The notes below the pieces were generated by a model that saw nothing but the letters and a program-made list of their open reading frames with translations, searched no databases and had not been told where the DNA came from. The position numbers and the translations under genes were made by a program. A DNA stretch of 32,000 nucleotides from Nitrosomonas europaea (lineage in GTDB: Bacteria > Pseudomonadota > Gammaproteobacteria > Burkholderiales > Nitrosomonadaceae), in NCBI RefSeq assembly GCF_900167395.1, contig NZ_FUWK01000016.1:16230-48229 (forward strand), in the 5' to 3' direction. This document shows, in pieces, positions 7,458 through 9,059 of this stretch. Position 1 is the stretch's first letter; the number at the start of each line of letters is the position of its first letter.

Positions 7458-9059
7458 TCAAGCAACAGCAGAGGTTCTGAAACTTGCAATAACCGTATCG
7501 CTGTCCCTGACATTACGTTTAACGATATCTGCAAGCAGACTGGTTTCTTCGATGATCGATTGCCCGACGGACGAGAAGGTCTTTTCATTATGTACGTAGC
7601 CCGATACCAGTGGATTGGTCAGAGCATGGGTAAATGCATCGTAACCCACCATCCGCACCATCAGGCGCCCCAGACTAAACCCTTCATCGTGATCTTCCGC
7701 AAAGATACCGACCTGCCACTCCAGGTCATCGATGCGATCGTTATACAGTTCCTTCAACTCCCGTTGCAGCGCCGGATCTGCTGTCAATTCCTCAAAACTT
7801 CTCAAACGCGGCATGCTGAATGCCTGGCGGTAATCATTGAATGAGCGCAGTTTGGCCTGACGCCCCATCTCTACGCTGCGTTCCATGACACTCCGGTTAT
7901 CCGCACCCACAGGCAATGGATCAAAAAAGAACTGAGGCGTGTTGTACAAACCGACACGGCCGGCTTTTTGCTGCGAGGCTGCTGATATCATGGTTCCAAT
8001 ACCATATTGGTGTGTGACCAGCGCGGTATTGTTGCGAAACTCATCGAGCGTGTATCGCTGATCACCGACAAAGTAGTATTCCGGCACCATCGAATGCCAC
8101 CTGTAGAGCAGATTGAATTCCAGAGAAATCCAGTTGGTGCGATACCAGCGCTGCCTTTCCGCCATCCCCGGTGTAGGATCGAGCGTAAAACCAAATTGTG
8201 TAAAATGCGAAACATAATCCTGCAACACCACTTTAATCAGCAGCACGATCATGATGTTTCTGGCTGTCTGGAACAGACGTTCATCATCCCAGGTGGGATG
8301 CGCTTCTTTGAGCACGTCACAGATCCGATTGTGTTCACGCAACATGATAGTATTCATGAGGGTATAGCCAATCGATGAATTACCATGTTCCAGCCCGGTG
8401 GCAAACATACGCTTCAACCGTTCTTCCGGGACATTGTCAAAAACAAATTCCAGAACAGCGCGGGGATGCAGATTCTCAAATTCCCTGTCAGCAAACACCC
8501 AATTATCTGCAGTCGTTTCTTCTACATTGAAAAGGTAAGGAGGAAAAATTTCTCCATCGATGACCTGATATTTCAGCTTGCCATCCTTTTTCAACCGCAG
8601 CAAATGCGTGATGTCTTCACGCAAGCCATAGATCTGGCACAGATCGATTTCGTGATTTGATGTATTTTTCCGGCGATCGAAAAAATCTGTCCGCAGAAAA
8701 CTATCGGTGAACCATTGAGCGAAAAAAGAAAACAGGATGCTGGTATCAACTGACGGGATTTCCCTGTTTTCTTTTCTGCGCCACAGATTGACAACACTTT
8801 TCAGATCCGGAAGATTCTGTTCTCCTTCCGCTTCCGGCAGATGTCGTCCGGTGAATGTCCGGTCTGTCAATGCCTGCCATGTGGTATAGGGAGCGGCCAT
8901 GGAGAATGGCCTGGGACGGGGGTTTGTGGCATAGGCCTGCCAATTGATAAAAGTATCGCTGATCCAGCGCCGCAACCACGTTATGCGCGAGGCGACTCGA
9001 CTGATCCATGGGAATCGGTTCACAAGCCGAAAAATGATCTGAAAAAAGAATTCATTCAT
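7458..9059 (-). CDS. cyclooxygenase (prostaglandin-H-synthase)-like haem dioxygenase
   Basis: Blocks [58 protein letters not shown] and [13 protein letters not shown] closely parallel vertebrate PGHS (from memory). SD GGGGA lies 6 nt before ATG 9059. Confidence 0.88.
   Translation of the reverse strand: [533 protein letters not shown]

What the first reader, a model, noticed from the sequence alone, without database searches (positions are those of the whole stretch)
7458..9059. Animal-like cyclooxygenase homologue lacking the distal His of the peroxidase site and the EGF/signal region
Seen: long near-identical runs relative to vertebrate PGHS as I remember it. Examples are [17 protein letters not shown] vs [17 protein letters not shown], and [26 protein letters not shown] vs [26 protein letters not shown]. 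The radical Tyr and proximal His are kept (LYRWH; Tyr codon 8103-8105, His 8094-8096). In the FAQHFTHQF block the sequence reads FAQWFTDSF, so the distal His207 equivalent is Asp (GAT, 8703-8705). The protein starts directly with amphipathic helices resembling the membrane-binding domain ([29 protein letters not shown]), with no signal peptide or EGF module. Inference: probable inter-domain transfer and an altered way of generating the Tyr radical. One possibility is that hydroperoxide from the neighbouring LOX is handled differently.
Basis: partly seen in the sequence, partly recalled or inferred. Interest (0 to 1): 0.75.

Follow-up and report, generated by a model that had tools for sequence, protein, structure and literature searches.

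The report
Bacterial cyclooxygenase-like fatty-acid dioxygenase gene
This Nitrosomonas gene encodes a bacterial relative of animal cyclooxygenase; the missing distal histidine, EGF module and signal peptide are normal for its large bacterial family, and the less expected point is that it always sits beside a lipoxygenase gene in nitrifiers and a few other bacteria.

Summary
ORF 7458..9059 (-) encodes a 533-aa protein whose best solved relative is mouse COX-2 (E 4e-70, 33% identity; AF2 model pLDDT 90, TM 0.83). Tyr319, His322 and Asp119 lie at the stated codons, and there is no signal peptide or EGF module.

The protein is 99% identical to a Nitrosomonas europaea "peroxidase family protein". 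It belongs to a very large bacterial family (3727 homologues at E<=1e-10; 229 species genomes). FAQWFTD[SG]F and LYRWH are near-universal in that family, and the Asp is invariant in 113/113 close homologues.

One family relative, Nostoc 10S-DOX, shares the FTDSF motif and a 3-helix membrane-binding domain. It is a characterised oleate/linoleate 10S-dioxygenase, so Asp at this site is compatible with dioxygenase activity.

A conserved His225 (GLEHGNS) aligns with COX Val291 and the MPO distal Arg239. Most of the family has Arg there. Mouse COX-2 never groups near the query in 100 bootstraps.

The gene is followed by a mini-lipoxygenase in all 20 loci with >=65% identity. Sister lineages fuse a P450 instead.

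Most likely it is a membrane-bound haem fatty-acid dioxygenase working with the lipoxygenase. It is a new member of a known kind, of moderate interest.

The parts
7458..9059 (-). COX-like haem dioxygenase gene (533 aa; 99% identical to N. europaea 'peroxidase family protein')
8934..9053 (-). Residues 3-42: three short aromatic/basic helices aligned to the COX membrane-binding domain. No signal peptide or EGF module lies before them.
   Evidence: HMMER alignment starts at COX-2 chain residue 64. AF2 helices at 3-15, 17-25 and 27-42. Hydrophobic moment 0.64/0.68 for the first two, and no uncharged run of 8 or more residues. The Nostoc 10S-DOX has three helices equal to COX aB-aD.
8697..8723 (-). 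Distal-helix motif FAQWFTDSF (residues 113-121): Gln115 = COX Gln203; Asp119 (GAT 8703-8705) = COX His207
   Evidence: Asp invariant in 113/113 homologues. The motif is family-wide.
8376..8396 (-). Motif GLEHGNS (residues 222-228): His225 (codon 8385-8387) at the position of COX Val291 / MPO distal Arg239. It is the candidate partner of Asp119 in the distal pocket.
   Evidence: His in 113/116 of the query's clade and Arg in most of the wider family. Location in the pocket is inferred by homology; coordinates were not inspected.
8094..8108 (-). LYRWH (residues 318-322): catalytic Tyr319 (= COX Tyr385), Arg320 (COX His386), Trp321 (= Trp387), proximal haem ligand His322 (= His388)
   Evidence: All invariant in 113 homologues.
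5725..7422 (-). Mini-lipoxygenase (565 aa, no PLAT domain) 35 bp downstream on the same strand. It is the conserved partner gene.
   Evidence: Pfam Lipoxygenase 8.7e-58. Best PDB match is a 569-aa '15-lipoxygenase', 5MED, E 4.6e-73. Adjacent to the COX-like gene in 20/20 loci with >=65% identity. Four candidate metal-ligand His residues are each kept in at least 19 of 20 orthologues (H259 19/20; H264, H445 and H449 20/20). The C-terminal residue is V or I in 19/20.
2808..5669 (-). Second An_peroxidase protein (953 aa) with a lipoprotein-type signal (…LLLSGC) and a distal His motif (FMTHDWFSH), 55 bp downstream of the LOX. It is a recurrent but not universal accessory.
   Evidence: Orthologue or homologue near the pair in L013, L019, L015, L023 and L020, and near the COX-like gene in Actinomycetota L039/L063.
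9230..10747 (-). Tyrosinase with two PPC domains, 170 bp upstream on the same strand. The neighbourhood is not conserved (seen only in L001).

Best explanation
The ORF encodes a member of the bacterial branch of the cyclooxygenase family (peroxidase-cyclooxygenase superfamily, Family 4). It is most likely a haem-dependent fatty-acid dioxygenase, not a prostaglandin synthase.

Shown:
- A COX fold.
- The proximal His322, the radical-forming Tyr319, its neighbour Tyr282 (= COX Tyr348) and Trp321.
- An N-terminal three-helix segment homologous to the COX membrane-binding domain, with no export signal.

Inferred mechanism:
1. The protein sits monotopically on the cytoplasmic face of the cell or intracytoplasmic membrane.
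2. A trace of fatty-acid hydroperoxide oxidises the haem. O-O cleavage is assisted by the distal Gln115 / Asp119 / His225 set rather than the His207 of COX. Most of the family uses Asp/Arg, a dyad that also serves in dye-decolourising peroxidases.
3. The oxidised haem oxidises Tyr319 to a radical.
4. The radical abstracts an allylic or bis-allylic hydrogen from a C16-C18 fatty acid.
5. O2 adds to give a hydroperoxide, as in the Nostoc 10S-DOX, which acts on oleate and linoleate.

The channel residues needed for arachidonate binding and endoperoxide formation in COX are all replaced: Arg120->Gln, Tyr355->Phe, Gly526->Val, Ser530->Ala, Leu531->Phe, Gly533->His. PGG2 synthesis is therefore unlikely.

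The gene forms a conserved two-gene module with a catalytically intact mini-lipoxygenase. The close relatives that lack the LOX and were examined (L018, L021, L022) carry a fused P450 instead. Elsewhere in the family there are fusions to a catalase-related domain or to a patatin phospholipase. The LOX therefore most likely acts in the same oxylipin pathway. It could act as a second oxygenase or hydroperoxide-transforming partner, or as the supplier of activating hydroperoxide.
For: Homology and fold:
- homology; pLDDT 90.4, pTM 0.91; TM 0.82-0.84 to COX-2, against 0.68 for alpha-dioxygenase.

Catalytic residues and clade invariants:
-.

Family breadth:
- 3727 homologues.
- 229 species genomes.
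- 308 clusters at 50% identity with E<=1e-30.
- a further 4140-protein alphaproteobacterial neighbourhood.

Characterised relative:
- The Nostoc 10S-DOX has F143tdsF, Ala at COX Ser530, Ile at Gly526 and three MBD helices.
- It oxidises oleate and linoleate to 10S-hydroperoxides and works with a catalase-related lyase (PMC13049297 citing Brash 2014).

Partner evidence:
- LOX adjacent in 20/20 loci, with its identity tracking that of the COX-like gene.
- LOX candidate metal ligands conserved.
- P450 fusions in the sister lineage (clade support 84-85%).
- Catalase and patatin fusions.
- Patatin and aldehyde dehydrogenase genes directly after the LOX in N. marina and a Kordiimonadaceae MAG.
Against: - No member of the query's own clade (Asp/His type, LOX-paired) has been characterised.
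- Identity to the Nostoc enzyme could not be measured, because its sequence was not retrievable here and it is not among the best 150 cluster representatives.
- The distal-pocket position of His225 rests on alignment, not on inspected coordinates.
- N. europaea lipids are dominated by 16:0 and 16:1 (my own knowledge, not tested here), so the natural substrate of both the DOX and the LOX is unclear.
- Co-transcription is inferred only from 35-55 bp spacers. The promoter/terminator scan was uninformative.
- No expression data were found in the paper library.
Confidence: 0.7

Rival explanations
1. The order of the pathway is reversed. The lipoxygenase makes the hydroperoxide. The COX-like protein, with its remodelled distal site, is mainly a hydroperoxide-converting haem enzyme (peroxidase, isomerase or lyase type) rather than a primary dioxygenase.
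For: - The distal His is replaced, as in haem enzymes specialised for organic hydroperoxides.
- The LOX has intact metal ligands.
- The family shows tight coupling with other hydroperoxide-handling haem proteins.
Against: - Tyr319, Tyr282 and Trp321, the dioxygenase machinery, are invariant in 113 homologues.
- The only characterised relative with the same FTDSF motif is a primary dioxygenase.
- In the sister lineage the partner is a P450. In the fungal DOX-CYP fusion enzymes (linoleate diol synthases) the P450 is the downstream enzyme.
Confidence: 0.15
2. It is an ordinary haem peroxidase with no fatty-acid chemistry, for example for Mn(II) oxidation or ROS handling as reported for other bacterial 'animal haem peroxidases'.
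For: - It is a Pfam An_peroxidase member.
- Bacterial members of the superfamily oxidise Mn or make superoxide.
- A second large peroxidase and a GMC oxidoreductase lie nearby.
Against: - It lacks the classical His/Arg distal pair and the Asp/Glu ester-link residues of true peroxidases. The position aligned to MPO Glu242 is Ser228.
- It has no export signal, whereas the Mn-oxidising enzymes are secreted (the latter is my own knowledge).
- Its closest structures are COX, not peroxidases.
- Its genomic partners (LOX, patatin, aldehyde dehydrogenase, P450) are lipid enzymes.
Confidence: 0.1
3. It is a true prostaglandin H synthase acquired by recent horizontal transfer from an animal, as the reader inferred from the near-identical peptide runs.
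For: - Local runs are very similar: [10 protein letters not shown] is identical, and LREHNR.CD.LK..HP.W.DE.LFQT is shared.
- The LOX-paired clade is slightly more COX-like (35-36% identity) than the actinobacterial homologues (28-29%).
Against: - Overall identity is only 33%.
- There are nested, well-supported bacterial relatives at 50-95% identity across several phyla.
- COX-2 never groups near the query in 100 bootstraps.
- Clade-specific invariants are absent from COX: Trp116, Asp119, Ser120, Arg320, Val471, Ala475, Phe476, and the near-invariant His225.
- The COX substrate-channel residues are replaced.
- GC content is unremarkable relative to the flanks.
Confidence: 0.03

Closest known systems
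Nostoc punctiforme linoleate 10S-dioxygenase (10S-DOX, UniProt B2J5P4; Brash et al. 2014, as summarised in PMC13049297)
   Same: - A roughly 540-aa bacterial COX-like protein without EGF module or signal peptide.
- Three N-terminal helices matching COX aB-aD.
- The FTDSF motif, with Asp at COX His207.
- Tyr385, His388 and Tyr348 equivalents are kept.
- Ala at Ser530 and a branched aliphatic residue at Gly526.
- The D-A-F-x-[QH]-A terminal motif.
- It works in tandem with a second oxylipin enzyme encoded by a separate gene.
   Different: - The Nostoc enzyme is reported to have Arg at the Val291 position; the query clade has His.
- The partner is a catalase-related hydroperoxide lyase in Nostoc and a mini-lipoxygenase here.
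- The Nostoc motifs (IMxxYIxxITP; SxIPAxxARxIG) are not matched exactly by the query or by any of the 412 proteins retrieved. The relationship is therefore family-level and orthology is not shown.
- Percent identity was not measured.
Vertebrate prostaglandin H synthases COX-1/COX-2
   Same: - Fold: TM 0.82-0.84.
- 33% identity over the membrane-binding and catalytic domains.
- Gln203, Tyr348, Val349, Asn382, Tyr385, Trp387 and His388 are kept.
   Different: - No signal peptide and no EGF module; three rather than four MBD helices.
- His207->Asp and Val291->His.
- His386->Arg, Arg120->Gln and Tyr355->Phe.
- Gly526->Val, Ser530->Ala, Leu531->Phe and Gly533->His.
- Cytoplasmic rather than lumenal topology (inferred).
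Fungal linoleate diol synthases / DOX-CYP fusion enzymes and plant alpha-dioxygenases
   Same: - Tyr-radical haem dioxygenases of the same superfamily that make fatty-acid hydroperoxides and have weak peroxidase activity.
- The DOX-P450 fusion architecture recurs in the query's sister lineage.
   Different: - Much lower similarity: alpha-DOX E 4e-20, TM 0.68, 17% identity.
- They keep a distal His (for alpha-DOX my own knowledge).
- They have a different or no COX-type membrane-binding domain.
Dye-decolourising peroxidases (distal Asp/Arg) and chloroperoxidase / unspecific peroxygenase (distal Glu) – functional analogy only, from my own knowledge
   Same: They use a distal carboxylate, with Arg, instead of His as the acid-base catalyst for peroxide O-O cleavage. 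The bacterial COX-like family has an Asp/Arg pair, or Asp/His in this clade, at the two classical distal positions.
   Different: The folds are unrelated. No experimental evidence shows that Asp119 plays this role here.

Membership tests
Peroxidase-cyclooxygenase superfamily (Pfam PF03098) | Significant match to the An_peroxidase profile above the gathering score | tested here: met
   144.5 bits against a cut-off of 25, E 5.5e-42
Prostaglandin H synthase (COX-1/2) | COX-type catalytic fold with proximal His388, radical Tyr385, and Tyr348 and Trp387 | tested here: met
   TM 0.82-0.84 to COX-2. H322, Y319, Y282 and W321 are aligned and invariant.
Prostaglandin H synthase (COX-1/2) | Distal His207 of the peroxidase site (with Gln203) | tested here: not met
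   Asp119 is at His207. Gln115 is kept.
Prostaglandin H synthase (COX-1/2) | Arachidonate channel residues Arg120, Tyr355, Ser530, Gly526 and Gly533 | tested here: not met
   Gln, Phe, Ala, Val and His respectively
Prostaglandin H synthase (COX-1/2) | Signal peptide plus EGF-like module before a four-helix membrane-binding domain | tested here: not met
   The protein starts inside the MBD-equivalent region. There are three helices and no signal-like hydrophobic run.
Prostaglandin H synthase (COX-1/2) | Converts arachidonate to PGG2/PGH2 | not testable with these tools
   Needs an enzyme assay
Bacterial COX-like dioxygenases (Family 4 bacterial branch; 10S-DOX type) | Distal-helix motif FAQ[WY]FTD[SG]F with Asp at COX His207, and LYRWH | tested here: met
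   FAQWFTDSF and LYRWH are present. They are near-universal in the family. The Nostoc enzyme has F143tdsF.
Bacterial COX-like dioxygenases (Family 4 bacterial branch; 10S-DOX type) | About 520-570 aa, no EGF module or signal peptide, three N-terminal helices equivalent to COX aB-aD | tested here: met
   533 aa with helices at 3-15, 17-25 and 27-42. The alignment starts in the COX MBD. The same is described for 10S-DOX.
Bacterial COX-like dioxygenases (Family 4 bacterial branch; 10S-DOX type) | Arg at the COX Val291 / MPO Arg239 position | tested here: not met
   His225 occupies it. His is found in 113/116 of the query clade. Arg is found in 78/117 cluster representatives and 118/118 of the P0178 clade.
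Bacterial COX-like dioxygenases (Family 4 bacterial branch; 10S-DOX type) | Orthology to the characterised Nostoc 10S-DOX (sequence identity, reciprocal best hit) | not tested
   The B2J5P4 sequence could not be retrieved. Its published motifs are not matched exactly by the query or by any of the 412 proteins retrieved.
Bacterial COX-like dioxygenases (Family 4 bacterial branch; 10S-DOX type) | Oxygenates C18 fatty acids to a hydroperoxide through a Tyr radical | not testable with these tools
   Needs an enzyme assay, EPR and a Y319F mutant

The most novel reading that the evidence does not exclude
The COX-like / mini-lipoxygenase pair is a distinct, uncharacterised bacterial oxylipin module, with accessory patatin phospholipase, aldehyde dehydrogenase and an exported haem peroxidase in some genomes. 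It is found in ammonia oxidisers, a Methylomonas and a few other proteobacteria. In this module a lipoxygenase takes the place that a P450 or catalase-related enzyme holds elsewhere in the family. It would transform the hydroperoxide made by a Tyr-radical haem dioxygenase from the cell's own monounsaturated membrane fatty acids. The dioxygenase would activate peroxide with an Asp/His dyad, with the His relocated to the classical distal-Arg position, which has not been described for this superfamily.
Probability: 0.25. Interest if true: 0.6.

Novelty: new member of a known kind. Interest (0 to 1): 0.35.

Why it matters
Taken as written, the finding is largely already explained. Bacterial 'cyclooxygenases' have been recognised in phylogenies for years. 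One relative with the same distal Asp, the Nostoc 10S-DOX, is a characterised fatty-acid dioxygenase.

Three things remain worth knowing.

1. No member of the Asp/His, LOX-paired clade has been studied.
2. How a COX-type haem site without a distal His forms the tyrosyl radical is an open mechanistic question. It bears on how cyclooxygenase chemistry evolved from peroxidases.
3. Nitrifiers and methanotrophs are not known to make polyunsaturated fatty acids (my own knowledge). A conserved dioxygenase-lipoxygenase operon in them therefore implies either an unknown substrate or an unknown lipid-derived signal or stress pathway in environmentally important bacteria.

Tried and rejected
**The Nostoc 10S-DOX sequence.** I tried to retrieve B2J5P4 to measure identity, without success.
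- The Brash 2014 paper is not held.
- Its published motifs were not found in any of the 412 retrieved proteins.
- The cluster look-up of 10 candidate representatives gave only one cyanobacterial MAG protein, 568 aa.
- A second homology search seeded with P0178 led to an alphaproteobacterial clade instead.

**Literature.**
- Searches for Nitrosomonas plus cyclooxygenase or lipoxygenase, and for guessed locus tags (NE1238-NE1241), found nothing on this gene.
- The N. europaea genome paper is not held.
- The Chem Rev octadecanoid review has nothing in the held part.

**Other tests that gave nothing.**
- NCBIfam has no model for the COX-like protein, the LOX or the 953-aa peroxidase.
- The promoter/terminator scan was at chance level and does not define the operon.

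**Phylogeny.** The NJ tree placed COX-2 outside all 133 bacterial-type sequences, but with only 37% bootstrap. The deep branching order is unresolved. I rely only on the robust negative result.

**Rejected readings.**
- Recent animal-to-bacterium transfer.
- Pseudogene or degenerate enzyme. All catalytic residues are under strong conservation and the AF2 model is confident.
- Tyrosinase as a functional partner. Its adjacency is seen in only one other locus.

**Not possible here.** Model coordinates are not exposed by the tools, so the distal-pocket geometry could not be measured.
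Full report

Yes. The minus-strand ORF 7458..9059 encodes 533 residues. It starts at an ATG preceded by an in-frame stop and a GGGGA Shine-Dalgarno-like run. The three codons it named are exact: Tyr319 TAC 8103-8105, His322 CAT 8094-8096 and Asp119 GAT 8703-8705.

The protein matches Pfam An_peroxidase (E 5.5e-42). 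Among all solved structures it is closest to mouse COX-2 (E 4e-70). Query residues 12-518 align to chain residues 64-546, so the alignment starts inside the membrane-binding domain and runs through the whole catalytic domain. Overall identity to COX-2 is 32.7%.

An AlphaFold2 model built on a 51-sequence alignment is confident (pLDDT 90.4, pTM 0.91). It superposes on COX-2 and COX-1 with TM 0.79-0.84. The next best folds, the plant alpha-dioxygenases, reach only 0.68.

**2. Residue by residue against COX**

- Kept: Gln203, Tyr348, Val349, Asn382, Tyr385, Trp387 and His388.
- Changed at the haem: His207->Asp119, His204->Trp, Gln208->Ser, His386->Arg and Val291->His225.
- Changed in the fatty-acid channel: Arg120->Gln, Tyr355->Phe, Gly526->Val, Ser530->Ala, Leu531->Phe and Gly533->His.

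Nothing corresponds to the COX signal peptide or EGF module. The first 50 residues have no uncharged stretch of 8 or more residues. The model shows three short helices at 3-15, 17-25 and 27-42. The first two have hydrophobic moments of 0.64 and 0.68, but 7% and 12% of residue shuffles reach those values.

**3. What is it?**

The protein is 99% identical to a Nitrosomonas europaea 'peroxidase family protein'. It is not an oddity.
- 3727 homologues score E<=1e-10.
- 308 clusters at 50% identity score E<=1e-30.
- 229 GTDB species genomes encode a relative.

The hosts include Nitrosomonas, Nitrosospira, Nitrosovibrio, Methylomonas, many Actinomycetota (Rhodococcus, Nocardia, Frankia, Gordonia, Solirubrobacterales), alphaproteobacteria (Pelagibius, Roseibium, Bradyrhizobium, Methylobacterium) and cyanobacteria.

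- Asp at the His207 position is invariant in 113/113 close homologues.
- FAQWFTD[SG]F plus LYRWH occurs in nearly all of the best 150 cluster representatives, and in 111/119 members of an alphaproteobacterial clade.

The literature already places 'bacterial cyclooxygenases' in Family 4 of the peroxidase-cyclooxygenase superfamily (Zamocky 2015). One relative, the Nostoc punctiforme 10S-DOX, has been characterised.
- It has 542 aa, three helices equivalent to COX aB-aD, and F143tdsF in place of COX F205thqF.
- It has Ala at Ser530 and Ile at Gly526.
- It oxidises oleate and linoleate to 10S-hydroperoxides, which a separately encoded catalase-related lyase then cleaves.

A COX-type enzyme with Asp at the distal-His position is therefore a working dioxygenase.

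**4. A His from elsewhere**

The motif GLEHGNS is conserved in the query's clade, with His in 110/113 sequences. By ungapped alignment anchored on LREHNR, His225 corresponds to COX Val291 and to the catalytic distal Arg239 of myeloperoxidase.

Across the wider family this position is usually Arg. The counts are 78/117 representatives and 118/118 of the alphaproteobacterial clade. This matches a 2026 review's remark on a 'unique and conserved Arg at the position of Val291' in the DOXs.

The family has therefore replaced the classical His/Arg distal pair with Asp/Arg, and in the query's clade with Asp/His. From my own knowledge, distal Asp/Arg is the acid-base pair of dye-decolourising peroxidases, and a distal Glu serves in chloroperoxidase. 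A carboxylate-based route to the oxidised haem that makes the tyrosyl radical is thus chemically reasonable. That Asp119 and His225 both face the iron is inferred from homology. I could not inspect model coordinates.

**5. Horizontal transfer?**

The query has nested bacterial relatives at 95% down to 50% identity. Clade support in an NJ analysis of 133 bacterial-type sequences plus mouse COX-2 and the window's other peroxidase was 100% for the LOX-paired clade and 84-85% for that clade plus the P450-fusion lineage.

COX-2 fell outside all bacterial sequences in the best tree, but with only 37% support. The deep order is unresolved. In all 100 bootstraps, however, the smallest clade holding both COX-2 and the query contained at least 84 of 134 sequences.

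The near-identical runs are real and are conserved in the LOX-paired clade (KDGKLKYQ). That clade is slightly more COX-like (35-36% identity) than the actinobacterial homologues (28-29%). Even so, nothing supports a recent animal-to-Nitrosomonas transfer, and GC content is unremarkable.

**6. Surroundings**

Four genes lie head to tail on the minus strand:
- a tyrosinase with two PPC domains (9230..10747);
- the COX-like gene;
- after 35 bp, a 565-aa mini-lipoxygenase (5725..7422);
- after 55 bp, a 953-aa second An_peroxidase with a lipoprotein signal and an intact distal His motif (2808..5669).

The important result is the conservation of the COX-like / LOX pair. In all 20 related loci with >=65% identity and enough sequence, a LOX follows on the same strand. 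The distance from the COX-like stop to the first possible LOX start codon in those loci is 3-184 bp. These loci come from Nitrosomonas spp., Nitrosospira, Nitrosovibrio, Methylomonas, an unclassified Pseudomonadota MAG and a Kordiimonadaceae MAG. LOX identity tracks COX-like identity, for example 94/90, 86/81, 76/76, 71/72 and 65/67 %.

The LOX looks catalytically competent.
- The four candidate metal-ligand His residues are each kept in at least 19 of the 20 LOX orthologues, and 19 of 20 end in Val or Ile.
- The best solved relative is a 569-aa mini-LOX, 5MED.

No LOX lies within 8 kb in the roughly 50%-identity homologues.

The next-closest lineages (53-63% identity; L018, L021, L022; P0121, P0122, P0066) encode COX-like::P450 fusion proteins instead. 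Elsewhere in the family there are COX-like::catalase and patatin::COX-like fusions.

Further lipid-related genes follow the pair in some genomes.
- In N. marina the pair is followed by a patatin phospholipase, an aldehyde dehydrogenase and a haem peroxidase.
- In the Kordiimonadaceae MAG it is followed by the aldehyde dehydrogenase and the peroxidase.

The recurrent logic is: lipase releases a fatty acid, the Tyr-radical dioxygenase makes a hydroperoxide, and a second enzyme transforms it. In this clade the LOX occupies the second-enzyme slot.

**7. Most likely mechanism**

Confidence is about 0.7 for the class of enzyme and lower for the details. The proposal is a monotopic, cytoplasm-facing haem dioxygenase.
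1. Trace hydroperoxide oxidises the haem, with help from Gln115, Asp119 and His225.
2. Tyr319 becomes a radical and abstracts hydrogen from a C16-C18 fatty acid.
3. O2 adds to give a hydroperoxide.
4. The LOX either further oxygenates or isomerises that product, or supplies the activating hydroperoxide.

Prostaglandin synthesis is unlikely because the residues that position arachidonate and allow endoperoxide formation in COX are replaced. That inference rests on COX mutagenesis literature recalled from my own knowledge.

The rivals are a reversed pathway order (0.15), a plain peroxidase (0.10) and a true COX acquired from animals (0.03).

**8. Novelty and interest**

The gene is publicly annotated, its family is known, and the distal Asp, missing EGF module and three-helix MBD have been described for the Nostoc enzyme. 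It is therefore a new member of a known kind.

What is not in the literature I could search:
- the Asp/His versus Asp/Arg split at the distal site;
- the strict COX-like/LOX operon in nitrifiers and a methanotroph;
- its replacement by P450 fusions in sister lineages.

N. europaea is not known to make polyunsaturated fatty acids (my own knowledge), so the substrates of both enzymes are an open and testable question. Interest is moderate (0.35). The most novel reading, a new oxylipin module with a new peroxide-activating dyad, would deserve about 0.6 if shown.

Noticed in passing
window 2808..5669 (-), 696..2720 (+), 30..671 (+): A 953-aa second An_peroxidase has a lipoprotein-type signal (…LLLSGC) and a classical distal His motif (FMTHDWFSH). 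Beside it lie a divergently transcribed GMC oxidoreductase and a 213-aa protein with no Pfam family. The same trio follows the COX-like/LOX pair in N. communis (L019). A GMC oxidoreductase plus a related peroxidase lie 2-4 kb from the COX-like gene in two Actinomycetota MAGs (L039, L063). This may be an H2O2-producing oxidase paired with a peroxidase.
   Followed up: partly
L015 11838..17200; L023; L020 3838..7762: In Nitrosomonas marina the COX-like/LOX pair is followed by a patatin-like phospholipase, an aldehyde dehydrogenase and a 790-aa-type haem peroxidase. In a Kordiimonadaceae MAG it is followed by the aldehyde dehydrogenase and the peroxidase. The aldehyde dehydrogenase hints that the pathway ends in chain cleavage to aldehydes.
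   Followed up: partly
L022 6721..9663; L021 7971..10841; L018 2975..5154 (cut); proteins P0121, P0122, P0066, P0131, P0138: Natural fusions occur in the family: COX-like::P450, in both domain orders; COX-like::catalase-related; and patatin::COX-like. The P450 fusions are the closest relatives of the LOX-paired clade. They mirror the fungal DOX-CYP linoleate diol synthases.
   Followed up: partly
L081 6001..7596 (and L082): A 56%-identical COX-like gene (P0038) sits inside a photosynthesis gene cluster, between the puhABC-type genes and pufC/M/L plus the LH1 genes, in a metagenomic contig. Like nitrifiers and methanotrophs, such phototrophs build intracytoplasmic membranes. This could be coincidence or a link to membrane lipid chemistry.
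   Followed up: no
window 9230..10747 (-): A tyrosinase (MelC2-like core) is fused to two bacterial pre-peptidase C-terminal (PPC) domains, directly upstream of the COX-like gene. Its adjacency is conserved only in the closest Nitrosomonas MAG (L001).
   Followed up: partly
window 11578..12378 (-) and 12518..13225 (-): Two Cys-rich proteins share a nearly identical C-terminal module (CGGIAG..CP.G..CVDDP.D.CDP..GGADCAGIC). The second also has a Kazal-type protease-inhibitor domain. Neither has a known family for the shared module.
   Followed up: no
window 16154..28592 (-): A chemosensory and pilus cluster: a 1713-aa CheA-like hybrid kinase with three Hpt domains, CheW and a receiver domain; an MCP; a pilin-like protein with an N-terminal methylation motif; and T2SSF and T2SSE (PilC/PilB-like) genes.
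   Followed up: no
window 29772..30827 (-), GC dip 29001..30000: An RHS-repeat / PT-TG pre-toxin protein with a ParB_N-like C-terminal domain lies in a local GC trough (0.40, against about 0.50 elsewhere). It is probably a polymorphic-toxin cassette tip.
   Followed up: no
window 7421..7435 (-): A weak hairpin (6 pairs, 3 G-C) lies in the 35-bp spacer between the COX-like stop codon and the LOX start codon and overlaps the LOX start. The scan as a whole was at chance level, so it may mean nothing.
   Followed up: no
window 8538..8588 (residues 158-174): The KDGKLKYQ run is identical to vertebrate COX. It is conserved across the LOX-paired clade but not in actinobacterial homologues (GGRLK.Q). 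The LOX-paired clade is overall the most COX-like bacterial group sampled (35-36% against 28-29% identity).
   Followed up: partly
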